A DNA stretch of 64,000 nucleotides from Folioceros fuciformis (lineage: Eukaryota), in the NCBI GenBank assembly GCA_049999805.1, contig JBNGIO010004611.1, forward strand, positions 1-64,000, read 5' to 3'. The notes under the pieces were generated by a model. It was not told the DNA's origin and ran no database searches. It worked only from the letters and a program-made list of their open reading frames with translations. The position numbers were made by a program, and so were the translations under genes. Every line of letters starts with the position of its first letter. The first letter of the stretch is position 1. Below, in pieces: positions 25,668 to 59,788 of the stretch.

Positions 25668-27899
25668 TCACGCCTGGGAAAGAGCTGTTTCAGGTGTGCT
25701 TCGCTTCCTCTCCCCAACTGAAAAGCTATGCACCAGTCCGTTCAAGTCTGTCCACCAGCTCTGGCCCGGTTGCTTCCAGGCCCCAAGTACTTTCCTCCTC
25801 ACCTGCAACTCTGCTGCCTCCTCCCACATCTGGGCTGCGGTATATATGTTTGACATCGATACGTATGCTGCGGCATCTTTGTCATCTAGCTTAACTGCTT
25901 CATCAAAAGCACAGCGTCCTACCTCCACGTTGCCCCACTTCTGACAAGCACCCAATAGAGTATGCCAAACTGCATCAGGGGCCTGCACAGGCATTGTCCT
26001 CACGATCAATAGTGCTTCATCGAGGTGACCTGCACGACTTAAGAGATCGACCATGCATGAGTAGTGCTCTGTAGAGGGAGTGATGCCGTAGTCTCTGCTC
26101 ATAGTGTCAAACAACTCTCGCCCCTGGTTTACGAGACCTGCATGACTGCAAACTGTTAGTACACTGAGCAATGTGACGCCATTTGGCTGTGTGCCACCCG
26201 TTTTCATTCTGTGAAGCAAGTCCAACACCACATCGGTGTCTCCCTGGCGCGTGTATCCTGCTATCAGAGCATTCCAAGCGATGACCTCTCTTTCTGGCAA
26301 TGCATCAAACACCTGCTGTGCATTCACCATGCTCCCCGACTTTGCATACATGTTGATCAAACTGATGGATACCACTTCATCAGCTAGAAGCCCTGCTTCT
26401 TCAATCTGAGCATGAAGCTGCCTTCCCACGTTTAAAGCTGCCACACTTGCACATGCTTGCAGCAAGCTCACAAAGGTCACGGAATCAGGTTGAGCGATTC
26501 CTTCCTCTTGCATAACGCTGTAGAGGCCAAGGGCTTCCTGGCCCATGCCTTGTTGGGAATATCCAGCTATCATGGCATTCCATGTCACGACGTCTTTCTG
26601 ACCAAGTTTGTCGAACACGAGTTGGGCGTTCTCTATGCTCCCGCATTTTGCATACATGTTTATCAGACTATTGGCTACAAATACATCACCATGTAGCCCG
26701 TGACCTTTAATCTGTTTATGAAAATGCTTCCCCTTCTCTAAAGCTGGGCTACCAATGCTTGCGCATGCCTGGAGGAGGGTTGAAAATGTGACGGTATTCG
26801 GTACAGCTAAGCCTTCCTCTTGCATAGCACTGTAAACATCAAAAGCTTGTTTGGCCATGCCCTGCTGGGAATATCCTGCTATCATTGCATTCCAGGTAAC
26901 TACATTTTTCTGCGGGAGTTTATCAAACACCCTCTGAGCAACCTCTATCGTGCCACACCTCGCATACATGTTTACCAGGCTGCAGCCCACAACCACATCA
27001 CCGTCAAGACCTCGTCTTACAATCTGCCTGTGAAGCTCCTTACCCTGTTCCATGGCCGGAATACCAAGAGTTGCACATGCCTGCAGAAGGCCCACAAAAG
27101 TAACTCTATCAGGCGCAGCGATGCCTTCTTGTTGCATAGCTCTGTACAGACGAAGGGCTTCCTCACCTATGCCCTTCTGCGAATATCCTGAGATCATGGC
27201 ATTCCAGGTCACTACGTTCTTTTGAGGCAGTCCGTCAAACACTCTTTGAGCATCTTCCAAGCTGCCACACTTGGCATACATGTCCACCAAGGAACTACAA
27301 ACAAAATGATCACACTCAACCCCACTGATCAAGACATCAGCATGCACCTGCTGCCCAGTTTCCAGGTCTGCTGCCCGTGCAGAAGCCTGTAGGGCCGCCA
27401 CAAACACATGGCCATCCGGCTTCACACTTGAGCTGCGCATCTGATGATACAATTGTATGGCCTGCTTAGCTTGGCCATGCTGAACATGTGCAGAGATTAT
27501 GGAAGACCACATGTAAGCATCTGCCTTTTCAACGGTGAACACATCCATCGCTTCTTGCAATCTGGCCTGAGAGGCGTACATTCGCAGGATGTGGTTGCAC
27601 AGGAACGTGTCCGACTCAGACCCCTTTGTCACGGTGAGAGCATGGACACGACGACCCAGAATCAGATCCTTCGTCATCATACAGCGTTTCAGAACTCTTC
27701 GAAAGAGATCTTTCGGAATAAGACTTTCCGTCTGCGCCAGAACTCCCAGAGCCTCGACAGCTTGACTGAGCTGCCCCTGCTCACATAGCTTGCTTACGGT
27801 CTCCACCGTTACATCCCTTTCGTACCCTGCAGGCCTGAGAGGCTCAGGATCAGCCCGCCAACCCCAGTTCGAAGGAGGGGCAGGGCAACCCATCTGCAT
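25668..27899 (-). CDS. PLS-class PPR protein A (4 P1L1S1-type L motifs + P2L2S2-E1-E2 + truncated E+), organellar RNA-editing specificity factor
   Basis: Repeating VVTWNAMI.GYSQQG / VTF..LLQACA / SL.NMYAKCGS triplets; EHYSCMVDLLSRAG, VWHTLLGACQKWGN, AAAYVSMSNIY, WKQPGQSWWTD..VHSFSVG; no HSE/CxxCH/DYW. First ATG at 27899 (the ORF-track start is GTG). Confidence 0.93.
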   Translation of the reverse strand: MQMGCPAPPSNWGWRADPEPLRPAGYERDVTVETVSKLCEQGQLSQAVEALGVLAQTESLIPKDLFRRVLKRCMMTKDLILGRRVHALTVTKGSESDTFLCNHILRMYASQARLQEAMDVFTVEKADAYMWSSIISAHVQHGQAKQAIQLYHQMRSSSVKPDGHVFVAALQASARAADLETGQQVHADVLISGVECDHFVCSSLVDMYAKCGSLEDAQRVFDGLPQKNVVTWNAMISGYSQKGIGEEALRLYRAMQQEGIAAPDRVTFVGLLQACATLGIPAMEQGKELHRQIVRRGLDGDVVVGCSLVNMYARCGTIEVAQRVFDKLPQKNVVTWNAMIAGYSQQGMAKQAFDVYSAMQEEGLAVPNTVTFSTLLQACASIGSPALEKGKHFHKQIKGHGLHGDVFVANSLINMYAKCGSIENAQLVFDKLGQKDVVTWNAMIAGYSQQGMGQEALGLYSVMQEEGIAQPDSVTFVSLLQACASVAALNVGRQLHAQIEEAGLLADEVVSISLINMYAKSGSMVNAQQVFDALPEREVIAWNALIAGYTRQGDTDVVLDLLHRMKTGGTQPNGVTLLSVLTVCSHAGLVNQGRELFDTMSRDYGITPSTEHYSCMVDLLSRAGHLDEALLIVRTMPVQAPDAVWHTLLGACQKWGNVEVGRCAFDEAVKLDDKDAAAYVSMSNIYTAAQMWEEAAELQVRRKVLGAWKQPGQSWWTDLNGLVHSFSVGERKRSTPETALSQA

Positions 27900-29433: not shown

Positions 29434-32400
29434 ATGACTGCCGGCAGCATTGCACCTGACGTACGCGCAGGGGGCCGACAAGATCTGCTGCGGGCAGAAT
29501 TTCTCTGGACACGACAGATTGGTGGATTAACATGTCATCTTGGAGGAGCTCCGGTCTACCTGGCTGCAAGGAGTCAACTAATGGTAGAAAGTAAGGCCGC
29601 CAGGTGCAGCAGCCTTGCGAGCCACCCAGTCTGTGTGACCCGAGAATGGTCTACTGGCGAGGCTCGTTACCAGGGGGCCTTGTGGCGACAATTTTTCCTG
29701 GTCCTTGCATTTCGCCCTTGTTGCCGCCAGGAGTCTCACGATGTTACCTGGCTGAACAGCTTGAGGAAGCCAACTTGGATGGGTGCGCAGGTGGCTGCTT
29801 TGGACATTCACATGACTTCTTCTGCCTCTACATTCCAGTGGAGCTTGCCGAATGAACCTGACCGTCGCAGGCATATGAATGTGAGCAATCTATGTCAGCA
29901 GGGGCAGCTCCATAAGGCCGTTGAGGCTTTGGGCATTCTGGTGCAGACAGACTTTCGTGTTTCCAGGTCTCTCTTCTATACTGTTCTGAAAACTTGTTTT
30001 GATAAGAAGGATCTGGTTCTGGGTCGCCGCGTCCATGCTCTCTCCATTGAAGAGGGGTTTGAGTCGGACACCTTCTTGTGCAATCACATCGTGCGAATGT
30101 ATGCCTCTCATTCGAGGTTGCAAGAAGCGATGGACGCTTTCACATTCGTTGCAAAACCTGATGCCTTCATGTGGTCATCCATATTATCTGCGCATGTTCA
30201 GCTTGGACAAGCTAAGCAGGCCATACTACTGTATCATGAAATGCGCAGGTCAAGTGTAAAACCAGATGGCCATGTGTTTGTAGCTGCTCTGCGGGCCTGT
30301 GCCAAGGGATTAGATCTGAAAAGTGGGCAGCAGGTCCATGCTGATTTGGTGGCCAGTGGTGTCGAGCCTGATATGTTTGTTTGTAGTTGCTTGGTTGACA
30401 TGTATGCAAAATGTGGCAGCTTACAAGATGCTCAAAGAGTGTTCGATGGCCTTAGCAAGAAAGATGTGGTAACGTGGAATGCCATGATAGCAGCTTATTC
30501 GCAACAGGGCATGGGTCAAGAATCCCTTCGTCTACACAGGGTTATGCAACAGGAAGGCATAGCTGCACCTGATTCTGTGACATTTGTGTGCCTCTTACAG
30601 GCATGTGCGGGTGTGGGGATTCCAGCTCTGGAGACGGGAAAACAGCTTCACAGACAGATTGAAGAACAAGGACTTCAGGCTGATGTAGTAGTCGGCTGTA
30701 GCTTGGTAAACATGTATGCCAAGTGTGGCAGCCTGCAGGAGGCTCACAGTGTTTTTAATACACTTCCTCAAAAGAATGTAGTGACGTGGACTGCTCTGAT
30801 AGTAGGATATTCTCAGCAGGGCATGGGCCAAGACGCCCTCGATCTTTACAGTGCCATGCAAGAGGAAGGAATTGATGCACCAGATTCGGTGTCATTTGCG
30901 TGCCTCCTCCAGGCATGCTCAAATGTGGGTCCCCTGGCTTTGGAGAATGGGAAGCAGTTACATGCACAGATACGAGAACGACAGCTCCAGGATGACGCCA
31001 TTATAGGTTGTGGCCTGGTACACATGTATTCAAAGTGTGGCAGCGTGGAGGATGCTCAGAGTGTGTTTGACGGCCTTGGTCAGAAAGACGTGGTTACGTG
31101 GACCGCCCTTATATCCGGATATGTCCAGCAGGGCAGGGGTCATGAAGCCCTAAGTCTCTACAGTACAATGCAAGAAGAGGGAAACGTTGCACCCGATACT
31201 GTGACATTTATGTGCCTCCTGCAAGCATGTGCGGATGTGGCAGCTTTGCATCTAGGTAGGCAACTTCATGCACAGATAAGAGAACGAGGAGTTGAATCTG
31301 ATCTGTCTGTAGCCAACAAGTTGATCGACATGTATGCGCGATGTAACAGCCTAGACGATGCTCAGAGTGTTTTTGATGGACTTCGTCAGAAGGATGCAGT
31401 AACATGGACCACGCTGATAACAGGATATTCCCGGCAGGGAATGGGTGAGAAAGCCCTTAATCTTTACAGCTCAATGCAAAATGAAGGCATTGCTGCACCC
31501 GATTCTGTGACATTTGTGTCTCTCCTTCAGGCATGTGCAAGTGTCGGTCTCCAAGCTTTGGAGAAAGGGAAGCAGCTTCATGCACAGATAGGAGAACGAG
31601 GACTTCAGGTTGACGTAGTTTTGGGCTCCAGCCTGGTAACAATGTATGCTAAATGTGGCAGCTTACATGACGCGCAGTTTGTGTTTGACAGTCTCCCTCA
31701 AAAAAATGTGGTAACGTGGACGGCTCTGATATCAGGATATTCCCAGCAAGGTATGGGTGAGGAAGCCCTTCGTCTTTACAGCTCGATGCAACAGGAGGGC
31801 CTTGCTCCACCTGATTCCGTCACATTTGTGTCTCTGTTGCAAGCTTGCGCAAGTGTGGCAGCTTTGCATGCGGGAAGGCAACTTCATATGCAGATCGAAG
31901 AACAAGGGCTTCAAGCTGACGTTCTTGTCGCCATGAGTCTAGTGAATATGTATGCAAGGTCTGCGAGCATGACTGATGCACAACAAGTGTTCGATACATT
32001 GCCCGGAAGAGATGTCATTTCCTGGAATGCGCTGATTGCAGGATACGCTCGTCATGGACAGAGTGAGATAGTTTTCGACTTGGTTCACAGGATGAGAGAG
32101 GCTGGCACACGGCCAAATGGGGTTACATTCTTGAGTCTGTTAGCAGTATGCAGTCACGCCGGTCTAGTGACCCGAGGGCGAGAGTACTTCGAGGCGATGA
32201 GCGGACACTACGGAATCTCTCCTTCCACGGAGCACTACTCATGCATGGTGGACCTGCTGGGCCGTGCAGGCCACCTTGACGAGGCACTATCGGTGGTGAA
32301 GACAATGCCTCTACAGCCTGATGCTGCAGTTTGGTACAGTCTATTGGGTGCTTGCCAGAAATGGAGCAACGTAGAAATTGGACGCCTTGCTTTTAATGAG

Positions 32401-32703
32401 GCACTGAAGCTAAACAAGACAGATTCTGCACCATATGTTCTCATGTCAAACATATATAAAGCTTCTCAGATGTGGGAGGAGGCTGAGGAGATGCAGGAGA
32501 GGAGAGTAGGAATCGGTGCGTGGAAGGAGCCTGGCCAGAGCTGGTGGACAGACACCGGTGGGCTGGTGCATAAGTTTGTGGTTGGGGATGACAGGCATCC
32601 AGAGAGTGAAGCCATATATTCTCGGCTTAAAGAGCTTGTGCCTAGCATGAAAGAAAAAGGGTACGTGCCGCTTCCTGATTCGTCTTACCGGGTCACATCG
32701 TGA
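29434..32703 (+). CDS. PLS-class PPR protein B (6 P1L1S1-type L motifs + P2L2S2-E1-E2-E+)
   Basis: 1089-aa intronless ORF of PLS triplets ending WKEPGQSWWTD..VHKFVVGDDRHPESEAIYSRLKEL..MKEKGYVP..*; stops before the deaminase core. The true start may be M116 (29779) or M127 (29812). Confidence 0.95.
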   Translation: MTAGSIAPDVRAGGRQDLLRAEFLWTRQIGGLTCHLGGAPVYLAARSQLMVESKAARCSSLASHPVCVTREWSTGEARYQGALWRQFFLVLAFRPCCRQESHDVTWLNSLRKPTWMGAQVAALDIHMTSSASTFQWSLPNEPDRRRHMNVSNLCQQGQLHKAVEALGILVQTDFRVSRSLFYTVLKTCFDKKDLVLGRRVHALSIEEGFESDTFLCNHIVRMYASHSRLQEAMDAFTFVAKPDAFMWSSILSAHVQLGQAKQAILLYHEMRRSSVKPDGHVFVAALRACAKGLDLKSGQQVHADLVASGVEPDMFVCSCLVDMYAKCGSLQDAQRVFDGLSKKDVVTWNAMIAAYSQQGMGQESLRLHRVMQQEGIAAPDSVTFVCLLQACAGVGIPALETGKQLHRQIEEQGLQADVVVGCSLVNMYAKCGSLQEAHSVFNTLPQKNVVTWTALIVGYSQQGMGQDALDLYSAMQEEGIDAPDSVSFACLLQACSNVGPLALENGKQLHAQIRERQLQDDAIIGCGLVHMYSKCGSVEDAQSVFDGLGQKDVVTWTALISGYVQQGRGHEALSLYSTMQEEGNVAPDTVTFMCLLQACADVAALHLGRQLHAQIRERGVESDLSVANKLIDMYARCNSLDDAQSVFDGLRQKDAVTWTTLITGYSRQGMGEKALNLYSSMQNEGIAAPDSVTFVSLLQACASVGLQALEKGKQLHAQIGERGLQVDVVLGSSLVTMYAKCGSLHDAQFVFDSLPQKNVVTWTALISGYSQQGMGEEALRLYSSMQQEGLAPPDSVTFVSLLQACASVAALHAGRQLHMQIEEQGLQADVLVAMSLVNMYARSASMTDAQQVFDTLPGRDVISWNALIAGYARHGQSEIVFDLVHRMREAGTRPNGVTFLSLLAVCSHAGLVTRGREYFEAMSGHYGISPSTEHYSCMVDLLGRAGHLDEALSVVKTMPLQPDAAVWYSLLGACQKWSNVEIGRLAFNEALKLNKTDSAPYVLMSNIYKASQMWEEAEEMQERRVGIGAWKEPGQSWWTDTGGLVHKFVVGDDRHPESEAIYSRLKELVPSMKEKGYVPLPDSSYRVTS

Positions 32704-33307: not shown

Positions 33308-35557
33308 ATGCAGATGGCTAGCTGTGCTCCCTCATCCATCGAACTTTCTTCTGCACGGTTCCACATGGGCGTGACACCTGAAGCTTTGAGCAATTTTTGT
33401 GAGCAGGGGCAGCTCATTGACGCGGTTGAGGCTCTCGGGGTTCTGGTGCAGTCGGGCTGTCGCATTTCGAAACCTGCGTTCTACACTGTGTTCCAGACAT
33501 GTGTGGTTAACAAGGACATAGTTCTGGGTCGCCGAGTTCATGCTCTCAGCGTGAAGCAGGGCTATGAATCGGACACGTTCTTGTGCAATCACATCCTCCG
33601 AATGTATGCTTCTCAGGGTAAGTTACAGGAAGCGATGGATGTGTTCACTGCGGTTGCCAAACCCAATGTCTTCATGTGGTCTTCCATCGTGCATGCCCAT
33701 GTCAAACAGGGGCAAAGTAAGCAGGCCATACAATTGTACCAGCAGATGCGCAAGTCAACTGTGAAGCCAGATGGCCATGTGTTTGTTGCAGCCCTGCAGG
33801 CTTGCGCAAGGGAAGCAGACTTGAAAACGGGAGAACTGGTGCATGCTGATGTGATGGCCAGTGGCATTGAGCCCGATGAGTTTGTCTGTAGTTGTTTGGT
33901 GGATATGTATGTCAAATGTGGCAGCTTGGAAGATGCTCAAAGAGTATTCGATGGACTCCCTCGAAAAAATGTGGTGACTTGGACTGCTTTGATAGTGGGC
34001 TATTCCCAGCAGGGCATGGGTGAGGAAGCACTTGGATTATACCGTGCTATGCGACAAGAAGGCATGGCTGCACCTGATGCCGTGACATTTGTGTGCCTCC
34101 TTCAGGCCTGTGCAAGTATTGGCATTCCTGCTTTGGAGACAGGGAAGAAGCTCCATCTAGAGATTAGAGAAAAAGGATTTCATGCTGATATTGCTATTGC
34201 AAACAGTTTGATAGTAATGTACATGAAGTGTTGCAGCCTACAGGATGCTCAGACCGTGTTTGACAGACTTGATAAGAAGGATGTGGTGACCTGGAATGCC
34301 ATGATAGCAGGATATTCTCAGCAGAAAATGGGTCACAAGGCCTTTAATTTCTATGATGCTATGCAAGAGGAAGGTATCTCTCCACCTGATTCTGTGACTT
34401 TTGTTTGTCTCCTGCAGGCCTGTGCAAATGTTGGTGCCGCCGCTTTGGAGAGGGGGAAGCAGCTGCATGTACAGATTGGAGAACGAAAACTTCACCTTGA
34501 CGTAGTTTTAGGCTGCAGTTTGGTAAACATGTACGCTAAGTGTGGTAGCTTAGAGGATGCACAGTGTGTATTTGACAGACTTCCTCAAAAGAATGTGGTT
34601 ACGTGGACAGCACTCATATCAGGATATTCCCAGCAAGGCATGGGTGAGGAAGCCCTTCGCATTTACAGCTCTATGCAGCAGGAGGGCATTGCTCCACCAG
34701 ATTCCGTCACATTTGTGTGTCTCCTGCAAGCGTGTGCAAGTGTGGCAGCTCTGCATGCAGGAAGGCATCTTCATTTTCAAATTGAACAACAAAGGCTTCA
34801 AACTAATGTATTCATAGCCGTCAGCTTGATAAACATGTATGCAAAGGCTGGGAGCATAGCTGATGCGCAGCAGGTCTTTGATGTGTTGCCTGAAAAAGAT
34901 CTTGTTGCGTGGAATGCGTTGATTGCAGGATACACCTCTCAAGGAGACAGTGAATCCGTCTTTGACTTGGTGCACAGAATGAGAGAGGATGGTATACAAC
35001 CTGACGGCATCACGTTCCTCAGTATGTTAACAGCTTGCAGTCATGCGGGCGCAGTGAAAAAGGGGCGAAGGTATTTTGAGGCTATGAGGAGACAGTATGG
35101 CGTCAGTCCCTCCATGGAGCACTACTCTTGCATGGTGGATCTCCTGGGTCGTGCAGGCCACCTTGAGGATGCATTAGCAATCGTAAGAGCCATGCCAGAA
35201 CTGCCGGATAACACAGTTTGGCACAGTCTCTTGGGTGCTTGTCGGAAGTGGAGCAATGTGAAGGTGGGACGTCAAGCCTTCCATGAAGCAATCAAGCTAG
35301 ATAAGAAAGATGTTGTAGCATATGTGTTGATGGCGAACATATACACTGGTGCTCAGATGTGGGAGGAGGCACGGGAGATCCAGGAGATCAGAAAACAATG
35401 CTGTGCATGGAAGGAACCGGGGCAGAGCTGGTGGACCGACATGGATGGACTGGTGCACTGTTTTGTGGTTGGGGATAAGAAGCATGCCGAGAGTGAGGCC
35501 ATCTATGCAAGCCTGAGACATCTGGTTAGTAGAATAGACGCTGAAGGGTGTGCATAA
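33308..35557 (+). CDS. PLS-class PPR protein C (4 P1L1S1-type L motifs + P2L2S2-E1-E2-E+)
   Basis: PLS triplets, E motifs and WKEPGQSWWTD..VHCFVVGDKKHAESEAIYASL..EGCA*. First ATG at 33308 (DMQM). Confidence 0.94.
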   Translation: MQMASCAPSSIELSSARFHMGVTPEALSNFCEQGQLIDAVEALGVLVQSGCRISKPAFYTVFQTCVVNKDIVLGRRVHALSVKQGYESDTFLCNHILRMYASQGKLQEAMDVFTAVAKPNVFMWSSIVHAHVKQGQSKQAIQLYQQMRKSTVKPDGHVFVAALQACAREADLKTGELVHADVMASGIEPDEFVCSCLVDMYVKCGSLEDAQRVFDGLPRKNVVTWTALIVGYSQQGMGEEALGLYRAMRQEGMAAPDAVTFVCLLQACASIGIPALETGKKLHLEIREKGFHADIAIANSLIVMYMKCCSLQDAQTVFDRLDKKDVVTWNAMIAGYSQQKMGHKAFNFYDAMQEEGISPPDSVTFVCLLQACANVGAAALERGKQLHVQIGERKLHLDVVLGCSLVNMYAKCGSLEDAQCVFDRLPQKNVVTWTALISGYSQQGMGEEALRIYSSMQQEGIAPPDSVTFVCLLQACASVAALHAGRHLHFQIEQQRLQTNVFIAVSLINMYAKAGSIADAQQVFDVLPEKDLVAWNALIAGYTSQGDSESVFDLVHRMREDGIQPDGITFLSMLTACSHAGAVKKGRRYFEAMRRQYGVSPSMEHYSCMVDLLGRAGHLEDALAIVRAMPELPDNTVWHSLLGACRKWSNVKVGRQAFHEAIKLDKKDVVAYVLMANIYTGAQMWEEAREIQEIRKQCCAWKEPGQSWWTDMDGLVHCFVVGDKKHAESEAIYASLRHLVSRIDAEGCA

Positions 35558-36233: not shown

Positions 36234-38642
36234 TTAATACTGCCGGTGCTTTCTGTCACCCACCATGAAAATGTGTACCCCCTGCGCATCTTCAACCAAG
36301 CTCCACCCGGGCTCTTTCCAAGCGCAACGCTCCTTCCGTAATCTCTCCACTTCCCAAGCAAGCTGAGAAAGGCCAGCATCAGCGTACATGTGCGACATCA
36401 ATATGTATGCTGCGGCATGCTCTGGGGCCAGATGCACGGCACTCGCAAAAGCTTGTTCTCCTAGTACTACGTTGCCATGTTTCCGACAAGCGCCTAACAC
36501 GCATAAGAACGTTGCCAGATTAGGCTGCATGGGCATCGTTGACAAGACATCGATTACATTTGCAAAGCAGCCTGCACTCCCAAATAGATCGATCATACAC
36601 ACATAGTGCTCAATCAGTGGCACTATACCTTGGACTCCAGTCATCAATTTAAAGTACTCCACACCTTTGTCCACTTCACAGGCACGAGCGCACGCAGAGA
36701 TGAGAGAGACAAGGGTCACTCCATCTGGACTGATACCTGCCATCCCCATCGTCTCGAAACATTGAGATGCTTCCTTTTCAAGCCCGTGCTGAGCATACCC
36801 TGCTAACATAGCATTCCATGTCACCACATCTTTCTTCACCATGTTGTCAAACACCATGCGAGCCTCACGCAAGCTGCCACACTTAGCGTACATGTCGACC
36901 AGACAGTTGCCAATCTCTTGATCACCTGCAAGTCCTCTCGCTTGGATTTGGGTATGCAGTTGCTTCCCGATGTGCAGTGCAGCAATGCTAGCACATGACT
37001 TCAAGAGAGACACAAAGGTTACATGATCCGGAGCAGCGAAGGCCTCCTTTTCCATAGTTGCAAAAAGACTCAATGCTTCTTGCCCACGCCCATGCTGAGC
37101 ATATCCGGTGAGCATCACATTCCACGTAATCACATCTTTCGTAGGCAGATTGTCAAATACCTTGCAAGCTTCATCAAAACTGCCACACTTCACATACATA
37201 TCTACCAGGCAATTACCAATAACTATATTGGAATCCAAACCTTGTGCTTGAATCTGCGCGTGTAGCTGCTTCCCATGATGCAGAGCTTCAATGCTGGCAC
37301 ACGTCTTAAGGAGGCAGACAAAAGTGACCTCATCCGCTGGAGTAACACCCTCTTCCTGCATGCTCGCGTACAGGGACAGGGCTTCTTGCCCTAACCCAAG
37401 CTCAGCATACCCTGAGAGCATGGCGGTCCATGCCACCACATCTTTTGTCACCAGTTTCTCGAATACCCTGCGAGCATCATCTAAACTCCCACACTTTGCA
37501 TACATGTCAACCAAGCTGCTTCCAACAACCAGATCCGATTCCAGACCATGTTTCCAAATCTGGGCATGAAGGTGCTTACCCTGCTCCAAGCCTCCAATGC
37601 TTGCACAAGCTTTGAGGAGGCATGTAAAAATCACGTCACCAGCAGCAGTGATACCCTGGTGCTGCATAATTTCATAGAGTTCCAGCGCTTCTTGCCCAAG
37701 CCCATGCCGGGCATATGCCGCGAGCATGGTCGTCCATGATACGAAATCTCTTGTGGCCAGATGGTCAAACACCCTGCGGGCATCATCCAAGCTTCCACAC
37801 TTTGCATACGTGTCCACAAGGCAGTTGCCAACGACCAGATGAGATGCCAGCCCCATGTCTCCAATCTGACCATGGACTTCCTTCACCTGATGTAGCTCTC
37901 CATGGCTCCCACACGCTTTGAGGAGGCAAAGAAATGTAACATGATTAGGGCAAGTGTTGCACATAAGCTGCATATTTGCAAAAAGAGAAAGCGCTTCTTG
38001 AGAAAGCCCATGTTGTGCGTATGCTGCAAGCATAGCATTCCATGTCACCACATTTCTCGTGACCATATTATCAAACACCCTGCGGGCGTCATCTAAACTG
38101 CCACACTTGGCATACATGTCCACGAGGCAGCTGCCTATAAATACATTGGCATCATCCCCAGTTCTCAAAACCTCAGCATGGACTTGCCTGCCGAAGGTCA
38201 ACTCTGCTACGCCAGCTCTGGCACAAGCTTTCATGACAGCCACGAACACATAGTTGTCGGGCAGCACCTTGGACTGCCGCATCTGCAAATACAAACGGAT
38301 CGCATGCCCAGGCTGTCCATGTTCAGCATATGCGGAGATAATAGAACCCCATGAGTGAACATTTGGAGCAGCCAATTCACTGAACACCTGCTCTGCTTCT
38401 TGCAACCGGCCCTGAGAAGCGTACATGCAAATTAGGTGGTTGGCTAAAAACCTGTTTGACTGGTACCCACTTTTCAACACGATAGCATGGACTGTGTTGC
38501 CAGCAAGGACCTTATCATCTGCAGTGCATCTTTTGATAACCTGGTACAGGACATCTGTGGGAACATACAAATGCTGCCTCAGCAGGAGGTCCAAGAATTG
38601 ACCCGCCTGTTCCAGCTCCCTTGACCTGCTGCAGGTGCACAA
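36234..38642 (-). CDS. PLS-class PPR protein D, divergent subfamily (5 P1L1S1-type L motifs + P2L2S2-E1-E2 + truncated E+); start probably on an upstream exon
   Basis: PLS triplets with a different consensus (YAQHGLGQEAL, LLKACA, DDARRVFD..TRD); EHYVCMIDLFGSAG; WKEPGWSLVED..VHIFMVGDRKH. No ATG near the ORF start; a tgcagcag acceptor lies at ~38628. Confidence 0.9.
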   Translation of the reverse strand: MCTCSRSRELEQAGQFLDLLLRQHLYVPTDVLYQVIKRCTADDKVLAGNTVHAIVLKSGYQSNRFLANHLICMYASQGRLQEAEQVFSELAAPNVHSWGSIISAYAEHGQPGHAIRLYLQMRQSKVLPDNYVFVAVMKACARAGVAELTFGRQVHAEVLRTGDDANVFIGSCLVDMYAKCGSLDDARRVFDNMVTRNVVTWNAMLAAYAQHGLSQEALSLFANMQLMCNTCPNHVTFLCLLKACGSHGELHQVKEVHGQIGDMGLASHLVVGNCLVDTYAKCGSLDDARRVFDHLATRDFVSWTTMLAAYARHGLGQEALELYEIMQHQGITAAGDVIFTCLLKACASIGGLEQGKHLHAQIWKHGLESDLVVGSSLVDMYAKCGSLDDARRVFEKLVTKDVVAWTAMLSGYAELGLGQEALSLYASMQEEGVTPADEVTFVCLLKTCASIEALHHGKQLHAQIQAQGLDSNIVIGNCLVDMYVKCGSFDEACKVFDNLPTKDVITWNVMLTGYAQHGRGQEALSLFATMEKEAFAAPDHVTFVSLLKSCASIAALHIGKQLHTQIQARGLAGDQEIGNCLVDMYAKCGSLREARMVFDNMVKKDVVTWNAMLAGYAQHGLEKEASQCFETMGMAGISPDGVTLVSLISACARACEVDKGVEYFKLMTGVQGIVPLIEHYVCMIDLFGSAGCFANVIDVLSTMPMQPNLATFLCVLGACRKHGNVVLGEQAFASAVHLAPEHAAAYILMSHMYADAGLSQLAWEVERLRKERCAWKEPGWSLVEDAQGVHIFMVGDRKHRQY

Positions 38643-52852: not shown

Positions 52853-55756
52853 TCAGATTCCGTTCCCTCGCATGTTGCAAGACGAGGTACCAAGTTCTTT
52901 CATCTTGGGAATGAGCTGTTTCAGCCTTAAGTGTACACTCTCTGGAAGCTTGTCGCCAACTGAAAACGTGTGCACGAGTCCGTCCGCGTCTGTCCACCAG
53001 CTCTGGCCCTGTCGCTTCCATGCAGCACTTCGTTTTCTCCTCAACTGTATCTCTAACCCTTCCTCCCACATCTGGGCACCCATGTATATGTTCGCCATCA
53101 AGACATATTCTGCAGCATCTGGTTCCTCTAGCTTCACTGCTTCATCGAAAGCATGCCGTCCCACCTCAACATTGCTCCACTTCTGGCAAGCACCCAGTAG
53201 CGTGCGCCAGACTGCCTTATCAGGCTGTACAGGCATTGTCTTTACCACTTCTAGTGCCTCATCTAGTTGGCCCGCTCGACCTAGGAGATCCACCATGCAT
53301 GAGAAGTGTTCCATGGTGGGATGGATGCCGAACTGTCTGTTCATAGTTTCAAAGTATTCTTGCCCCTTGCTTACGGCGCCCACATGACTGCAAACGGTTA
53401 GTACACATAGGAAAGTCACGCCATTTGGATGTACGCCATGCTCTGTCATTCTCTGAACCAAGTCAAATACTACGCCACTGTCGCCCTGGCGGGTGTACCC
53501 TGCAATCATCGCATTCCAGGCAACGATGCCTCTTTCAGGTAATGCATCAAAGACTCGCTGAGCATCAACCATGCTCCCACCTTTTGCATACATACTTATC
53601 AAACCCATGGCTACAGGCACATCAGCTTCAAGCCCTTGTTCCTTAATCTGAGCATGAAGCTGCCTTCCTATATGCAGATCTGCAACACTTGCACATGCTT
53701 GCAAGAGGCACACAAATGTGACAGAATCTGGTGGAACACAACCGTCCAGTTGCATAGCCCTAACAAGACAGAAGGCTTTGTGATCCATACCTTGCTGGGA
53801 ATATCCAGCTATCAGGGCAGTCCACGTTGCCACATCCTTTTGGGGCAGCTTGTCAAAGACGCTATGAGCAAGGTGTGGGCTGCCACACTTTGCATACAAG
53901 TTCACCAAACTGCAACCTAAGGCCGCATCCACGTGAAGACCTTGTTCTTCTATCTGTCTATGAAACTGTTTCCCCTGTTCCAGAGCTGTTATACCAAGAC
54001 TTGCACATGCCTGCAGGAGGCACACAAATGTGACAGAATTTGGAGTTGAGATGCCCTCTTCTTGCATTGTGCCATAAAGCTCAAGAGCTTCTTGACCCAT
54101 GCTTTTCTGGGCGTATCCTGCTATCAGGGCATTCCACGTCACCACATTCTTCTCATCAAGTCCATCAAACACGCTCTGAGCATCATGAAGGCTGCCACAC
54201 TTTGCGTACATGTTTACTAAGCTGCAACCCAGAACCACATCAACCTTAAGTCCTCGTTCCTCAATCTGTCTGTGCAGGTACTTTCCCCTCTGTAGATCCG
54301 AGATACCAATACTTGCACACGCCTGGAGAAGGCATATGAACGTCACAGAATCAGGTGTTAGACTGCCTTCGTGTTCCATAACACTGTGAAGATGAATCAC
54401 TTCCTGAAACATGCCTTGCTGGGAGTATGCGGCCAACATGGCATTCCACGTCACTACATCTTTTTGCGAAAGTCCTTCAAACACGCTTTGGGCATCATCC
54501 AGGCTGCCACACTTCGCGTACATGTTAATCAGACTGTTGGCTACAATAACATCACTCTGAAGCCCTTGCTCTTCGATCTGTGCATGAAGCTGCTTTCCCA
54601 TCTTGAGAGCTGGGGTACCCCAACTTGCGCATGCTTGCAGTAAGCAGAGAAATGTTACAGAATCCGGTGCAGCAATGCCTTCCTGTTGCATTTCACTGTA
54701 AAGTCGTAGGGCTTCCTCACCCATGCCACACTTTGCATACATGTCCACCAAGCAACTAGAGACAAACCTATTAAGGTGAAGCTCGCTAGCCAACACATCG
54801 GCATGAACCTGCTGCCCACTTTCCAGGTCAGCTCCCCTTGCACAAGCCTGTAAGGCTGCTACGAACACATGGCCATCCGGTTTAACATTTGACCTGCGCA
54901 TTTGATGATATAGTTGAATGGCCTGTTTAGCTTGTCCATGTTGAACATACGCTGATATTATGGAAGACCACATGAAGGCATCTGGTTCCGGGACCGTGGT
55001 GAACACATCCGTCGCCTCTTGCAACCTGGCATGACATGCATACATTCGTAAGATGTGGTTGCACAAGAATGTGTCCGACTGATATCCCTGTTGCACGGTG
55101 AGAGCATGAATCCGGCGACCCACAATCAGATTCTGCTGGACCGTACATTCTTTCAGCACATTGTAAAACACAGTTTTGGAAAACCGATAGCCTGTCTTGA
55201 CGAGAACTCCCACAACCTCAACTGCCTCGGTGAGGTGCCCCTGCTGACATAATTTGCTCGCAGTTTCTGGAGTTAATCCTCGTTCACATCCCGGGGGCCC
55301 GCGAGGATCATGATGATCCGCCATCCACCCGCTGGATTGCGGGAGAAGACGATGTCCTGCCTGCATCTCTGGAGCAGCCACCTCTCCATCTACAGAATTC
55401 CACTTGGAAAAGTTACCCAGCCAGACGATCTCGTTGGACACTTTACCGTGGAAGTGGGGCGACCGATTGCTCTTGCTACGTTGCCTCAGAGAAACTGCAC
55501 CGCCCCTAAAGCAATGTGGCAACACGAGATTTTGGCAACCACTTTCTCTGGAGTCTCTTTCCCCATAGCCATCCAGATACTCTCGTGGACGGGCTGGTGC
55601 CGATAGCCATAACTCGTTAGAGCGGACCCACAATTCCCCTTTGCTCTGCAATCCCATGACCCAGGGTTGGAAAACATCCTTTTCACCGCAGATTATCGCC
55701 AGTCTACAGGGATCGATGCACAGTTGAAACATGTCGCCATCTTGTAGACGTCTCAT
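52853..55756 (-). CDS. PLS-class PPR protein E (5 P1L1S1-type L motifs, one fused S/P motif, P2L2S2-E1-E2-E+ partial)
   Basis: PLS triplets; EHFSCMVDLLGRAG; WKRQGQSWWTD..VHTFSVGD..RLKQLIPKMKELG*. First ATG is 55756; the family-aligned Met is 55366. Confidence 0.93.
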   Translation of the reverse strand: MRRLQDGDMFQLCIDPCRLAIICGEKDVFQPWVMGLQSKGELWVRSNELWLSAPARPREYLDGYGERDSRESGCQNLVLPHCFRGGAVSLRQRSKSNRSPHFHGKVSNEIVWLGNFSKWNSVDGEVAAPEMQAGHRLLPQSSGWMADHHDPRGPPGCERGLTPETASKLCQQGHLTEAVEVVGVLVKTGYRFSKTVFYNVLKECTVQQNLIVGRRIHALTVQQGYQSDTFLCNHILRMYACHARLQEATDVFTTVPEPDAFMWSSIISAYVQHGQAKQAIQLYHQMRRSNVKPDGHVFVAALQACARGADLESGQQVHADVLASELHLNRFVSSCLVDMYAKCGMGEEALRLYSEMQQEGIAAPDSVTFLCLLQACASWGTPALKMGKQLHAQIEEQGLQSDVIVANSLINMYAKCGSLDDAQSVFEGLSQKDVVTWNAMLAAYSQQGMFQEVIHLHSVMEHEGSLTPDSVTFICLLQACASIGISDLQRGKYLHRQIEERGLKVDVVLGCSLVNMYAKCGSLHDAQSVFDGLDEKNVVTWNALIAGYAQKSMGQEALELYGTMQEEGISTPNSVTFVCLLQACASLGITALEQGKQFHRQIEEQGLHVDAALGCSLVNLYAKCGSPHLAHSVFDKLPQKDVATWTALIAGYSQQGMDHKAFCLVRAMQLDGCVPPDSVTFVCLLQACASVADLHIGRQLHAQIKEQGLEADVPVAMGLISMYAKGGSMVDAQRVFDALPERGIVAWNAMIAGYTRQGDSGVVFDLVQRMTEHGVHPNGVTFLCVLTVCSHVGAVSKGQEYFETMNRQFGIHPTMEHFSCMVDLLGRAGQLDEALEVVKTMPVQPDKAVWRTLLGACQKWSNVEVGRHAFDEAVKLEEPDAAEYVLMANIYMGAQMWEEGLEIQLRRKRSAAWKRQGQSWWTDADGLVHTFSVGDKLPESVHLRLKQLIPKMKELGTSSCNMRGNGI

Positions 55757-55960: not shown

Positions 55961-58900
55961 ATGAGAGTCTGTAGCGTTGCATTCGATCGACGCAGTGGGC
56001 AACAGGAATTTCTGTTGGGAGAGTTATCGTGGACCGGACATACCAGTGGGTTGGAAAGAATTGCTCGAAGACCTGTGAGCTTGAATGTACGGAGCCACCA
56101 ACTGGCATGTAAGGAAGCCACCAGGGGCAGCAGGCTTGCAAGGCACCCAGCCCGCTCAAGAGAATGTCCAGCTGGAGAAAGATCTTCGACAGAACAGCTG
56201 GCTGCTCTGAACTGGCAGATGGATCATCGCCGTCTCCGCACAAGCGACTGGAGTCTATCGGATCGTCCTGACCCTGGTAGGCTTGCAAGATGCGAAACCG
56301 TGGTATCTCCTGAAACTGTGAGCAAACTGTGTCAACACAGACAGATTACTGAGGCCGTGGAGGCTCTGGGAATCCTGGTGCAGACATACCATCCTATTTC
56401 CACGTCTCTGTTTTATACTGTCATAAAAGCGTGCAAGGCTGAAAAGACCGTGTTTCTGGGTCGCCGAGTTCATGCTCTCACAGTGGTACAGGGGTACGAG
56501 TCGGACACGTTCTTGTGCAATCACATTTTGCGAATGTATGCTTCTCATGACAGGTTACAAGAAGCGATGGATGTGTTCACCGTGGTTGCTAAACCAGATG
56601 TTTTTATGTGGTCCTCCATAATTTCTTCGCATGCTCAAAATGGGCAAGCTAAGCACGCTATACAACTGTATTGCCAGATGCGAAGATCAAGTGTGAAGCC
56701 AGATGGCCATGTGTTTGTAGCAGCTCTGCAGGCTTGTGCAAAGGAAGCCGACCTCGAAACTGGACAACAGGTGCATGATGACGTTTTGGCCAGTGGATCT
56801 GAGCCTGATATGTTTGTTAGCAGCTGCCTGGTGGACATGTATGCAAAGTGTGGGAGCTTGGAAGACGCTCAAAGAGTGTTTGAGAGACTTCCTCAAAAGA
56901 ATGTGGTGACGTGGACCTCACTGCTAGCAGGGTATTCCCAGCAGGGTATGGGTCAGGAAGCCATTCGTCTTTACAATACCATGCAACAAGAAGGCATCGC
57001 TAAACCTGATTCTGTGACACTAGTTTGCCTGCTGCAAGCATGTGCAAGTGTGGGTACTCAAGCATTGGTGAAGGGGATGCAGCTTCATGCTCAGATTCGA
57101 GATCTAGGACTTGAGGCTGATGTGTTTGTAGCCAACACTTTGATCAACATGTATGCAAAGTGTGGCAGCATACAGGATGCTCAGAGCGTGTTTCACGGAC
57201 TTGGTGAAAAAGATGTTGTGACTTGGAATTCCATGATAGCGGCATACTCTCAGCAGGGCATGGGTGAGGAAGCCCTTCACCTTTACAGGGCTATGCAGCA
57301 AGGGGGAATGATTGCGCCCAATTCTGTGACGTTTGTGTGCCTCTTGCAGGCATGTGCGAGTGTGGGCACCCAAGCTTTGGAGCAGGGGAAACAGCTTCAT
57401 GTACAGATCGGCGACCACGGACTTGAAGCCGATGTGGCTATAGGCAATAATCTCATAAACATGTATGCCAAATGTGGCAGTCTGGGGGATGCTAGGACCA
57501 TGTTTGATCGACTTGAGATTAAGGATGTGGTGACGTGGACTGCCCTGATTGCAGGATATTCGCAGCAGGGAATGGGCGAAGAGGCCTTTCATCTTTACAG
57601 GGCTATGCTGGTCGACGGCGTTGCTACACCCGATGCTGTGACATTTGTGTGTCTCTTGCAAGGTTGTGCAAGCCTGGGCACCCGAGCTTTGGACACTGGG
57701 AAACAGCTTCATGCACAGATAAACGAACAAGGGCTTCAGCTTAATGTTTCTGTAGCGAACAGTTTGATAAGCATGTATGCAAAATGTGGCAGCATTGAGG
57801 AAGCTCAGAGGGTGTTTGATGGAATTAGTGAAAAATATGTAGCAACATGGAATTCCATGATAGCAGGATATTCTCAGGAGGGTATGGGTCAAGAAGCCCT
57901 TCATCTTTTCAGCGCTATGGAACAAGAAGGCTCTGCCGAACCCGACACTATGACATTTGTGTGCCTCCTGCAGGCATGCGCAGGAATTGGTGACGCAGCG
58001 TTAGCGGACGGGAAGCAGCTTCATGCACAGATTAGAGAAAGAGGAATTGAGGTCGACTTAATCTTAGGCTGCAGCCTGGTGAATATGTATGCGAAATGCG
58101 GCAGCTTGGAGGAGGCACAGAGTGTGTTTAACAGACTTGGTGAAAAGGACGTTGTGACGTGGAATGCCATGATAGCAGGATATTCCCAGCAAGGCATGGT
58201 TGGGAAAGCTCTTGAACTGCACACTGCCATGCAAGAAGCAGGGATAGTTACATCTGATTCTGTAACGTTTGTTTGCCTCCTGCAGGCATGTGCATGTGTG
58301 GGTACCCCAGCTTTGGAGATAGGGAAGCGGCTCCACGCACAGATTGGAGAACAAGGACTCGCAAGTCATTTGGCTGTGAGCAATAATTTGATAAACATGT
58401 ACGCAAAGTGTGGCAGCCTAGAGGATGCTCGGAGTGTGTTTTATGGGCTTGTTCAAAAAGATGTGGTTACTTGGACAACGCTAATAGCAGGGTTTTCTCA
58501 GCAGGGGATGGGTGATGAAGCCCTTGAACTTTACAGCGCCATGCAAGGAGAAGGCCTCCAGGCACTTGACTCTGTGACGTTTGTGTGCCTCCTGCAGGCA
58601 TGTGCAGCTGTGGGTTCCCCAGCTTTAGACATTGGGAAGCAGCTTCATGCAAAGATTGGAGAGCAAGGGCTTCAAGCTGACTTGTTTGTGGGCAACAGTC
58701 TGATCAGCATGTACGCCAAGTGTGGCAGCCTACAAGAAGCTCAGGACGTTTTTGATCGGCTTCCTCAACGAGACGTTGTGACCTGGACAGCTTTGATAGC
58801 AGGATATGGTGAGCAGGGGATGGATGTGGAAGCTCTGTCTGTCTACAGCGCTATGCAGCAAGGCTGTCGGACTCCACCGGATGTTGTAACATTTGTATGT

Positions 58901-59788
58901 CTCCTGCAGGCATGTGCAAGTTTGGCAGCATTGCATGCAGGAAAACAGCTCCACGCACAGATTAAAGAGCAAGGGCTGGAAGGTGATTCGGCAATAGCCA
59001 CCAGTCTGATAAACATGTATGCAAAGTCCGGCAGCATGTTTGACGCACAACAGGTGTTCAATTCATTATCCAAAAGAGACATAGTCACCTGGAATACCAT
59101 CATTGCAGGCTACAGCCGTCAGGGAGATAGCGAAGTCGTCTTTGACCTGATTCACAGAATGCAGGAGGCTCGCATTCGGCCAAACAGCATCACGTTCGTC
59201 AGTCTTCTGACAGTATGCAGTCACGCAGGCCTAGTGGACAAGGGACACGAGTACTTCGAGGCCATGAGCGGGCAATACGGCATCAGTCCCACCGCGGAGC
59301 ACTACTCCTGCATGGTGGATCTCCTGGGTCGTGCAGGCCATCTGCACCAGGCACTGGCGGTGGTGATGGCAACGCCTATACAGCTCGATGGCACAGTTTG
59401 GCACACTCTGTTGGGCGCTTGTCAGAAGTGGAGCAACGTGGAGATAGGGCGTTATGCTTTCTATGAAGCGATGAAACTAGACGAGAAAGACGCATCGGCA
59501 TACGCCTTGATGTCCAACATTTACACTAGCGTCCAGATGTGGGAGGAGGCAGAGCAGATGCATGTCAGGAGAACATCCATTCGCGCGTGGAAGCAGCCGG
59601 GCCGGAGCTGGTGGACAGATGTCGACGGGACAATTCATGGGTTTATGGTCGGGGATAGAAAACATCCCGAAAGCAAGAGTATACATGCAAGGCTGAAACT
59701 GCTCATTTCCCATGTGAAGAGAGAACGATATATTTCTCCACCGGGCTCGACGGTGGACATGGCGAACGATAATGACAACAGAGTTTAG
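55961..59788 (+). CDS. PLS-class PPR protein F (8 P1L1S1-type L motifs + P2L2S2-E1-E2-E+), longest of the cluster
   Basis: 1275-aa intronless ORF; WKQPGRSWWTD..IHGFMVGDRKHPESKSIHARLKLL..*; no deaminase motifs. The family-aligned Met is 56219. Confidence 0.95.
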   Translation: MRVCSVAFDRRSGQQEFLLGELSWTGHTSGLERIARRPVSLNVRSHQLACKEATRGSRLARHPARSRECPAGERSSTEQLAALNWQMDHRRLRTSDWSLSDRPDPGRLARCETVVSPETVSKLCQHRQITEAVEALGILVQTYHPISTSLFYTVIKACKAEKTVFLGRRVHALTVVQGYESDTFLCNHILRMYASHDRLQEAMDVFTVVAKPDVFMWSSIISSHAQNGQAKHAIQLYCQMRRSSVKPDGHVFVAALQACAKEADLETGQQVHDDVLASGSEPDMFVSSCLVDMYAKCGSLEDAQRVFERLPQKNVVTWTSLLAGYSQQGMGQEAIRLYNTMQQEGIAKPDSVTLVCLLQACASVGTQALVKGMQLHAQIRDLGLEADVFVANTLINMYAKCGSIQDAQSVFHGLGEKDVVTWNSMIAAYSQQGMGEEALHLYRAMQQGGMIAPNSVTFVCLLQACASVGTQALEQGKQLHVQIGDHGLEADVAIGNNLINMYAKCGSLGDARTMFDRLEIKDVVTWTALIAGYSQQGMGEEAFHLYRAMLVDGVATPDAVTFVCLLQGCASLGTRALDTGKQLHAQINEQGLQLNVSVANSLISMYAKCGSIEEAQRVFDGISEKYVATWNSMIAGYSQEGMGQEALHLFSAMEQEGSAEPDTMTFVCLLQACAGIGDAALADGKQLHAQIRERGIEVDLILGCSLVNMYAKCGSLEEAQSVFNRLGEKDVVTWNAMIAGYSQQGMVGKALELHTAMQEAGIVTSDSVTFVCLLQACACVGTPALEIGKRLHAQIGEQGLASHLAVSNNLINMYAKCGSLEDARSVFYGLVQKDVVTWTTLIAGFSQQGMGDEALELYSAMQGEGLQALDSVTFVCLLQACAAVGSPALDIGKQLHAKIGEQGLQADLFVGNSLISMYAKCGSLQEAQDVFDRLPQRDVVTWTALIAGYGEQGMDVEALSVYSAMQQGCRTPPDVVTFVCLLQACASLAALHAGKQLHAQIKEQGLEGDSAIATSLINMYAKSGSMFDAQQVFNSLSKRDIVTWNTIIAGYSRQGDSEVVFDLIHRMQEARIRPNSITFVSLLTVCSHAGLVDKGHEYFEAMSGQYGISPTAEHYSCMVDLLGRAGHLHQALAVVMATPIQLDGTVWHTLLGACQKWSNVEIGRYAFYEAMKLDEKDASAYALMSNIYTSVQMWEEAEQMHVRRTSIRAWKQPGRSWWTDVDGTIHGFMVGDRKHPESKSIHARLKLLISHVKRERYISPPGSTVDMANDNDNRV

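What the first reader, a model, noticed from the sequence alone, without database searches (positions are those of the whole stretch)
25668..59788. Six-gene PLS-PPR array with fixed caps and a variable core: a modular diversification locus for RNA-editing factors
Seen: genes A, B, C, E and F share a near-invariant N-terminal block (SDTFLCNHI.RMYA...LQEA.D.FT..P..FMWSSI...GQAK.AI.LY..MR.S.VKPDGHVFVAAL.ACA) and C-terminal block (EHYSCMVDLL.RAG..WS/GNVE.GR..W(K)xxG.SWWTD). They differ in the number of central PLS triplets (4, 6, 4, 5, 8) and at motif position 5 and last (N/T/S/C; D/N). Two pairs are head-to-head (A/B, E/F). Established: PLS-E proteins specify organellar editing sites at one motif per nucleotide via positions 5 and last. 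Inference: unequal crossover or gene conversion between ~310-bp triplets generates new specificities locally, much like TALE arrays. Large hornwort PPR families are known; this locus-level mechanism is the part worth a look.
Basis: partly seen in the sequence, partly recalled or inferred. Interest (0 to 1): 0.8.

Follow-up and report, generated by a model that had tools for sequence, protein, structure and literature searches.

The report
Old tandem cluster of PPR genes
Six neighbouring plant genes for RNA-binding repeat proteins differ in how many 104-residue repeat blocks they carry, but the copies are old and long diverged, so this is an ordinary tandem gene family with a few ancient recombination scars and not an active specificity-shuffling locus.

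Summary
Six intronless PLS-class PPR ORFs lie at 25668-59788. Five of them (A, B, C, E, F) form one subfamily with homologous ends and 4, 6, 4, about 5 and 8 PLS triplets. The sixth, D, belongs to another subfamily.

All six have E motifs and a short stub of the DYW domain, but no deaminase.

The "fixed caps" are not near-invariant. They are 61-73% identical in protein, against 53-73% for any two central triplets.

Nothing resembles a TALE array:
- No two triplets exceed 77% nucleotide identity.
- Within-gene similarity (71.2%) equals between-gene similarity (70.4%).
- The longest shared exact stretch is 29 nt.
- The code positions 5 and last rank only 37th-59th of 104 columns for variability.

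Synonymous divergence (dS) is 0.7-1.5, with dN/dS about 0.2.

Three old rearrangement scars exist:
- a chimeric triplet, B4;
- a 330-nt B-C conversion-like tract;
- a 93-nt microhomology deletion in E.

Verdict: an old tandem family shaped by an early burst of duplication and triplet gain or loss, now evolving by point mutation under purifying selection. Recombining PPR clusters are already described for Rf-like genes. Interest is low to moderate.

The parts
25668..27899 (-). Gene A: PLS-class PPR with E1/E2 and a short DYW stub, 743 aa, 4 triplets (central 104-aa units at 26592-27215)
   Evidence: ORF; Pfam; units
29434..32703 (+). Gene B: 1089-aa ORF, 6 triplets (central units at 30466-31707). 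Homology to the paralogues starts near 29880. The upstream part of the ORF carries a block also seen upstream of A and F.
33308..35557 (+). Gene C: 749 aa, 4 triplets (central units at 33971-34594)
36234..38426 (-). Gene D: PPR of a different subfamily, 5 triplets of 102-103 aa. Its frame stays open and homologous for about 84 further codons upstream (homology to about 38618) with no ATG.
52853..55756 (-). Gene E: 967-aa ORF, 5 triplets of which one is shortened. A conserved start candidate lies at 55366.
55961..59788 (+). Gene F: 1275-aa ORF, 8 triplets (central units at 56903-58774)
31090..31395 (+). Unit B4: a chimeric triplet of 102 aa, with a last-unit-type L motif and a central-type S motif. 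The junction lies near 31303.
   Evidence: identity by segment; segment trees
31555..31886 (+). B side of the B-C conversion-like tract (mid-L of unit B5 to mid-L of unit B6)
34442..34773 (+). C side of the same tract (mid-L of unit C3 to mid-L of unit C4)
54724..54725 (-). Junction of a 93-nt in-frame deletion in E. It fuses helix A of the first S motif to helix B of the next P motif (...MYAKCG|MGEEAL...). In the paralogues both ends carry the same four bases (GGCA).

Best explanation
This is an old tandem family of intronless PLS-class PPR genes in a land plant. Five paralogues of one subfamily, plus one unrelated PPR gene, each encode a lead-in of PPR motifs, a canonical first P-L-S triplet, 2-7 further triplets, then P2-L2-S2, E1/E2 and only the first 25-57 residues past the PG box of a DYW domain. 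They are therefore 'E+'-type RNA-binding specificity factors without their own deaminase. By analogy with angiosperm E+ proteins (inferred), they would need a DYW protein in trans to edit organellar RNA. The paralogues and their central triplets arose in one early burst of tandem duplication, when the copies were still similar enough to mispair. Whole triplets were gained or lost then, one triplet became chimeric (B4), and B and C later exchanged about 330 nt. Since then the genes have diverged by point substitution under purifying selection. There is no homogenisation and no sign of recent exchange, so the locus is now a frozen product of that burst.
For: Shown:
- The domain content is PPR plus E motif in 6 of 6 genes and no deaminase in any.
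- Alignment to the last 200 aa of 8 DYW-bearing homologues stops at about residues 84-122 of that segment in all six genes, and no deaminase remnant occurs anywhere in the window.
- Relatives with the same N cap and the same SWWTD PG box carry a full DYW domain. Among the 11 of 233 fetched PPR proteins with that box, 6 have the deaminase motif. The window genes are therefore truncated derivatives.
- First units and last units each form one clade across genes (last-unit clade support 100). The central units form a near-star radiation.
- dS is 0.67-1.55 between caps, the median is 1.11 between central units, and dN/dS is 0.14-0.32.
- Unit identities are at most 77% nt, and within-gene identity equals between-gene identity.
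- The longest exact match between units is 29 nt.
- Homology between paralogues ends at the coding regions, with no similarity in the flanks.
- Scars: the B4 chimera, the B-C tract and the E deletion between GGCA microhomologies.
- Contigs of two other organisms match parts of E, F and their spacer at about 84-94%, closer than any paralogue in the window.

From papers (passages read):
- The E+ subgroup is reported as enriched in hornworts, and angiosperm E+ proteins are listed in editosomes together with DYW2 (PMC13386178).
Against: - No whole genome is held. I could not test whether closer paralogues lie elsewhere, or whether the family is really confined to this locus.
- Triplet counts in other accessions or species were not obtained. 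The public contigs are short and the laying was swamped by paralogues.
- Two exchange events did happen, so recombination is not excluded as a slow, continuing process.
- Star-like trees have little power to detect old conversions.
- Expression, organellar targeting and any editing role are not shown.
- A and D lack an obvious start or presequence.
- The taxon is not established.
Confidence: 0.68

Rival explanations
1. One reading: the locus is a working modular diversification engine. Unequal crossover and gene conversion between the ~312-nt triplets keep producing new RNA specificities, as in TALE arrays or Rf-like PPR clusters.
For: Triplet numbers differ between the paralogues. The order of S-motif types differs between genes (central units, 'C' or 'N' at position 5: A C-N, B C-C-N-C, C N-C, E N-C-C, F N-N-N-C-N-N). 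The B4 chimera and the B-C tract show that exchange can occur. The genes are adjacent and partly inverted, which favours mispairing.
Against: No unit pair exceeds 77% nt identity or falls below dS 0.58. Repeats are not homogenised within genes (71.2% against 70.4%). Exact matches are at most 29 nt. Code positions are not hypervariable (ranks 37-59 of 104). dN/dS is about 0.2. The run test on the caps is not significant (best p 0.05-0.08 over 10 pairs each), and the AU tests do not reject either cap topology (p 0.11-0.12). Even the one conversion-like tract has since diverged by 14%.
Confidence: 0.1
2. Differential loss only. The ancestor carried a long array of five or more central triplets, and today's genes are deletion derivatives made by slippage or microhomology-mediated deletion, with no role for homologous unequal crossover.
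For: The one deletion whose junction can be read, in E, lies between 4-nt microhomologies and is not in triplet register. The orders in A, B, C and E can each be read as a contiguous part of an N-C-C-N-C series (my inference). B2+E2 and B5+C3 keep positional orthology.
Against: F (N-N-N-C-N-N) cannot be derived by deletion alone. B3 groups with B5/C3/F5 and not with E3/A2. B4 is a chimera of two unit types, which needs an exchange. All other length differences are exact multiples of one triplet.
Confidence: 0.12
3. Decaying relics. After losing the deaminase the genes became functionless and are slowly eroding.
For: All six lack the deaminase. E carries an internal deletion. D has no ATG ahead of its N-terminal motifs. 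In A, stop codons separate the conserved upstream block from the ORF.
Against: All six frames are open over 730-1275 codons. dN/dS is 0.14-0.32 over a dS of about 1. The E deletion is in frame and leaves a hybrid motif of normal length. Truncated relatives with the same ends occur among the fetched database proteins: P0036, P0091 and P0100.
Confidence: 0.1

Closest known systems
Restorer-of-fertility-like (RFL) PPR gene clusters of angiosperms, e.g. rice chromosome 10 (PMC5075784, passages read)
   Same: Tandem clusters of PPR genes. Whole motifs are inserted, deleted or duplicated. Genes are chimeric through unequal crossover or gene conversion. Altered motif strings imply altered RNA targets.
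   Different: RFL genes are P-class. They show high intra-cluster similarity, exceptionally high diversity at positions 5 and 35, and strong differences between species. Here the genes are PLS/E+ class, the unit of change is a 312-nt triplet, similarity is only about 70-78% nt, the code positions are not hypervariable, and every event seen is old.
E+ subgroup of PLS PPR proteins (C-terminally truncated editing factors). Reported as enriched in hornworts; in angiosperms listed in editosomes with DYW2 and NUWA (PMC13386178, passages read).
   Same: A PLS array plus E motifs plus a stub of the DYW domain, with no deaminase.
   Different: No function, partner or target is known for these genes. 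Pfam's Eplus_motif is below its cut-off in 3 genes and absent in 3.
Full-length DYW proteins with the SWWTD form of the PG box (e.g. P0289, and the Selaginella moellendorffii proteins P0263, P0280 and P0351)
   Same: The SWWTD box is shared. P0289 also shares the N-terminal lead-in and the EHYSCMVDLLGRAGH block. C-cap identity to gene C is 48-59% among those listed (P0289 59%, P0263 50%, P0280 48%, P0351 48%).
   Different: They keep the deaminase (CGHSE[KR]LA ... C[ED]DCH ... a C-terminal D/N-F/Y-W). The window genes end 25-57 residues after SWWTD.
TALE repeat arrays (recalled from general knowledge, not from a call)
   Same: A one-repeat-per-base code carried by two residues per repeat, and arrays of variable length.
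   Different: TALE repeats are near-identical in DNA apart from the code residues, and they recombine readily. Here the repeats are 63-77% identical and the code residues vary no more than the scaffold does.
Naegleria PPR-DYW gene with recently copied 104-residue units
   Same: A 104-residue PLS unit repeated within one gene.
   Different: There, three units are reported as 92-97% identical (recent copying within the gene). Here no pair exceeds 77%.

Membership tests
PLS-class PPR, E+ subgroup | Alternating P, L and S motifs in triplets | tested here: met
   Pfam PPR families hit in 6 of 6. Period of 101-104 aa in protein and 312 nt by TRF.
PLS-class PPR, E+ subgroup | E1/E2 motifs after P2-L2-S2 | tested here: met
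   Pfam E_motif at 28.4-49.7 bits against a cut-off of 27.3 in 6 of 6
PLS-class PPR, E+ subgroup | A partial DYW domain (PG-box region) is present | tested here: inconclusive
   Pfam Eplus_motif scores only 17.3-20.1 bits against a cut-off of 24, in B, C and F, and is absent in A, D and E. Alignment to DYW homologues nevertheless covers the PG-box region in all six.
PLS-class PPR, E+ subgroup | Deaminase core (HxE...CxxC) is absent | tested here: met
   No DYW Pfam hit. tblastn with 8 DYW tails finds nothing beyond about residue 122 of 200 at E below 0.1.
PLS-class PPR, E+ subgroup | Organellar targeting and a role in C-to-U editing with a DYW protein in trans | not testable with these tools
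   No targeting predictor, organellar genome or editome was available.
RFL-like recombining PPR cluster | Genomic clustering of close paralogues | tested here: met
   Five subfamily members lie within 34 kb.
RFL-like recombining PPR cluster | Chimeric genes or motifs produced by recombination | tested here: met
   B4 chimera; B-C tract
RFL-like recombining PPR cluster | Exceptional diversity at positions 5 and last | tested here: not met
   Entropy ranks 37-59 of 104 columns among 16 central units; dN/dS about 0.2
RFL-like recombining PPR cluster | High intra-cluster against low inter-cluster similarity, and strong structural variation between species | not testable with these tools
   No genome is held. 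Public contigs are too short.
RFL-like recombining PPR cluster | P-class motif composition | tested here: not met
   The genes are PLS triplets with E motifs.
TALE-like array | Near-identical repeats that differ mainly at the code residues | tested here: not met
   Units are 63-77% nt identical. The code columns have median variability.

The most novel reading that the evidence does not exclude
Tandem E+ PPR paralogues in a hyper-editing non-seed plant form a PLS-class counterpart of Rf-like clusters. Exchange of whole P-L-S cassettes between neighbours (B4, the B-C tract) would be a slow but real route to new editing-site specificities. The shared ends would act as a common docking module for a trans-acting deaminase.
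Probability: 0.2. Interest if true: 0.55.

Novelty: new member of a known kind. Interest (0 to 1): 0.3.

Why it matters
If cassette exchange between neighbouring editing-factor genes were frequent, it would help explain how plants with thousands of editing sites keep producing matching specificity factors. The evidence here points to the ordinary route instead: duplication followed by slow divergence, with rare exchange. The locus remains a clear, datable example of triplet-level rearrangement in PLS-class genes. I found that process described only for P-class Rf-like genes: searches returned RFL papers or nothing for PLS/DYW with unequal crossing-over or gene conversion. The library excludes most subscription journals, so this is no proof of absence.

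Tried and rejected
- **Whole-genome search:** no genome is held for this window.
- **Earlier notes of this scan:** none for this genome or sequence.
- **Sequencing runs:** no RNA holder listed.
- **Laying four runs at 80% likeness:** this laid 7642, 5839, 11383 and 14205 contigs, mostly from paralogous PPR genes.
  - The listed joints skip 637-1270 nt, not multiples of 312, and have sides of 23-56 letters. I do not read them as triplet-number variants.
  - Run X3 ('RNA?' is only a guess) has uneven depth and little cover of the E-F spacer. I draw nothing on expression from that.
  - No contig spans a whole gene, so triplet counts in other samples or species could not be read.
- **Cap-tree incongruence:** both cap trees are poorly supported, and the AU tests do not reject the other topology (p 0.11 and 0.12).
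- **Sawyer-type run test:**
  - Caps are not significant.
  - Among 210 unit pairs, 2 reached 0 of 500 permutations. Those runs are at most 27 nt and sit in conserved motif cores. With 210 comparisons I do not count them.
- **Window scan of the N cap:** several pairs are flagged at the same columns, which means a conserved region and not a pair-specific exchange.
- **Taxon:** a PRP38 gene in the window gave no close named relative. The best was 66% identity over the full length, or 86% over 57% of the query to a lycophyte protein. None of the listed hits that carry a source name (most have none) is labelled hornwort. The hornwort guess stays open.
- **Literature:** 'DYW' + 'PLS-class' + 'gene conversion' gave 0 papers. 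Searches failed on term format. I re-sent the first with a changed term and did not re-send the second.
- **Not attempted:** predicting RNA targets from the motif code, because no organellar sequence was available.
Full report
**What is there.**

With the standard code, the region 25668-59788 holds six long ORFs:
- A 25668-27899 (-)
- B 29434-32703 (+)
- C 33308-35557 (+)
- D 36234-38426 (-)
- E 52853-55756 (-)
- F 55961-59788 (+)

A/B and E/F are divergent (head-to-head) pairs. A tblastn search with C finds PPR homology at these six places and at one 108-nt hit at 6140-6247 outside the region.

All six hit the Pfam PPR families and the E motif above its cut-off. None hits a DYW deaminase family. 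The E+ motif appears, below its cut-off, in B, C and F only.

I took the last 200 residues of eight DYW-bearing homologues and searched the window with them. The alignments stop at about residues 84-122 of that segment in all six genes. Nothing in the window matches the deaminase core at E below 0.1. The genes are therefore PLS-E proteins that keep the PG-box region of the DYW domain and then end. (The motif names P1/L1/S1, P2/L2/S2, E1/E2 and PG box are from my knowledge of the PPR literature, not from a call.)

**Repeat anatomy.**

I anchored on the start of each P motif. Each of A, B, C, E and F then has:
- a first triplet of 101 aa;
- central triplets of 104 aa (a P motif of 36 aa and an L motif of 37 aa);
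- a last triplet of 102 aa;
- then P2-L2-S2, E1 and E2.

Tandem Repeats Finder independently reports a 312-nt period in B, E and F at 70-73% matches.

D has five units of 102-103 aa that are only 46-65% nt identical to the others' units, so it belongs to another subfamily.

In E, 31 residues are missing between the first S motif and the next P motif (...MYAKCG|MGEEAL...). In the paralogues both ends of the lost 93 nt read GGC|A. This looks like a microhomology-mediated, in-frame deletion that leaves one hybrid motif of normal length.

**How alike are the parts?**

| Part | Protein identity | Nucleotide identity | Pairs |
|---|---|---|---|
| N cap | 65-73% | 74-78% | 10 |
| C cap | 61-70% | 69-75% | 10 |
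| Central triplets | 53-73% | 63-77% | 136 |

The caps are not near-invariant. The core differs mainly in the number of units.

Central units of one gene are no more alike (mean 71.2% nt, 26 pairs) than units of different genes (70.4%, 110 pairs).

The longest exact match between any two units is 29 nt.

By Nei-Gojobori, dS is 0.67-1.17 for the N cap and 0.76-1.55 for the C cap. The median between central units is 1.11 and the minimum 0.58. dN/dS is 0.14-0.32.

Self-BLAST shows that similarity between paralogues ends at the coding regions, apart from a few bases.

Among the 16 complete central units, positions 5 and last of the P, L and S motifs rank 37th to 59th of 104 columns for entropy. 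They toggle between two main states: N/T, D/N and N/C. None of this resembles a TALE array or the hypervariable code positions reported for Rf-like genes.

**Trees.**

In a nucleotide tree of all 32 units:
- The first units form one clade, with D1 as sister.
- The last units form one clade (support 100).
- The central units form a near-star.
- A few cross-gene pairs are supported: B2+E2 (96), B5+C3 (93, with F5 at 78) and A2+E3 (72).
- One within-gene pair is supported: F3+F6 (85).

Trees of the N cap and of the C cap are poorly resolved. AU tests do not reject the other cap's topology (p 0.11 and 0.12).

The pattern fits one early burst in which the genes and the triplets multiplied at about the same time.

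**Recombination scars.**

I found three:

1. **Unit B4 is chimeric.** It is 102 aa long. On the L segment it falls inside the last-unit clade (support 91). On the S segment the last-unit clade (support 99) excludes it, and it sits among the central units. That is the signature of an exchange between a last unit and a central unit, with the junction between L and S.
2. **B and C share a conversion-like tract.** When the 3' parts of the five genes are aligned, B and C (tandem neighbours) show 13.9% differences over about 330 nt (B 31555-31886, C 34442-34773) against 27.4% elsewhere. None of 2000 permutations reaches this. The other nine pairs show 25-33% in the same columns, and none of them is significant. 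This is a pair-specific conversion-like tract, itself already 14% diverged.
3. **The deletion in E**, described above.

A control scan of the N cap flags the same columns in several pairs, which means conservation and not exchange. A run-length test on the caps is not significant.

**Relatives.**

The window's own proteins are not in the protein database. The closest full-length relatives are unnamed Logan proteins at 59%, 53% and 52% identity (P0036, P0100 and P0091). These three share the N-terminal lead-in, the EHYSCMVDLLGRAG block (EHYTCMTDLLGRAG in P0036; QHYNCMVDLLGRAG in P0100) and the SWWTD form of the PG box, and they are also truncated.

Among 233 fetched PPR proteins, 11 carry the box. 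Six of those have a complete DYW domain, including three from Selaginella moellendorffii. One of the six (P0289) has the same N cap. The subfamily therefore descends from full DYW proteins and lost the deaminase.

Contigs from two other coded organisms match parts of E, of F and of the spacer between them at roughly 84-94% identity. That is closer than any paralogue in the window, which suggests that E and F predate those species splits. Because the contigs are short, neither adjacency nor triplet counts could be read.

**Context from papers.**

- *Anthoceros angustus* genome paper (PMC7027989, passages read): a very large PLS-class expansion.
- A 2026 survey (PMC13386178; passages and the whole of section 6 read):
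  - PPR expansion in hornworts and lycophytes is attributed mainly to dispersed duplication linked to retroposition.
  - The E+ subgroup is stated to be enriched in hornworts.
  - Angiosperm E+ proteins are listed in editosomes with DYW2.
- Rice Rf-like clusters (PMC5075784, passages read): tandem duplication, unequal crossover, gene conversion and motif insertion or deletion are described as drivers of specificity change.

My searches found no such description for PLS or DYW genes. The library lacks most subscription journals, and supplements were not consulted.

**Verdict.**

The best reading is an old tandem family of E+-type PPR genes. Their differing triplet numbers and few mosaic junctions date from an early period of mispairing. 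The genes have since evolved by point mutation under purifying selection.

An actively shuffling, TALE-like locus is not supported. It is also not strictly excluded, because accessions, the rest of the genome, expression and RNA targets could not be examined.

Noticed in passing
39211-41631, 45144-49824 and (inverted) 60117-61427: A second duplicated family lies between and beside the PPR genes. Three copies of a glutamine-rich gene (long ORFs at 46643-47740 and 48238-49824) are 84-88% nt identical in places, which makes them younger than the PPR duplicates. They have no Pfam hit.
   Followed up: partly
60572-60671: A run of 100 N (assembly gap) lies just downstream of F, inside the inverted copy of the glutamine-rich gene.
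   Followed up: no
upstream of A (about 28230), B (29434-29560) and F (55961-56060); also at the starts near 27899, 29812, 33308 and 55366: Two conserved blocks lie ahead of the PPR motifs. One is an in-frame peptide-like block (G.Q[DE][LF]L..[QE][FL].[WC]) 327-438 nt upstream in A, B and F; it is open in B and F but cut off by stop codons in A. The other is the string AQ[VL]AAPDMQM at the putative start of A and C, with similar strings in B and E. Possible explanations are a presequence, a 5' exon or a conserved leader.
   Followed up: partly
38427-38680 (-): Gene D's frame stays open and homologous for about 84 codons upstream of its first ATG, with no ATG in that stretch. Either an upstream exon exists or the start has been lost.
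   Followed up: partly
all six genes, e.g. 35420-35440 in C: The PG box reads SWWTD in A, B, C, E and F (D reads SLVED). The same variant occurs in full-length DYW proteins, including three from Selaginella moellendorffii.
   Followed up: partly
43917-44407, 45204-45588, 61431-61726: Non-coding tandem repeats: a 115-nt unit x3 (94% matches), a 28-nt unit x14 (also at 40084-40299) and a 59-nt unit x5.
   Followed up: no
4809-5327, 6839-8224, 11899-12576: Other genes in the window: a DUF565 protein, a PRP38 splicing factor in one long exon, and an exon of a mitochondrial carrier.
   Followed up: partly
18000-26000 and 42000-44000: G+C falls to 36-41%, against about 50% in the PPR genes.
   Followed up: no
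52800-59800 (laid runs): Summed contig depth over conserved motif stretches reaches hundreds to thousands of times the single-copy depth (for example 8079 against about 9 in run X1). The genome therefore holds a very large number of similar PLS units.
   Followed up: no
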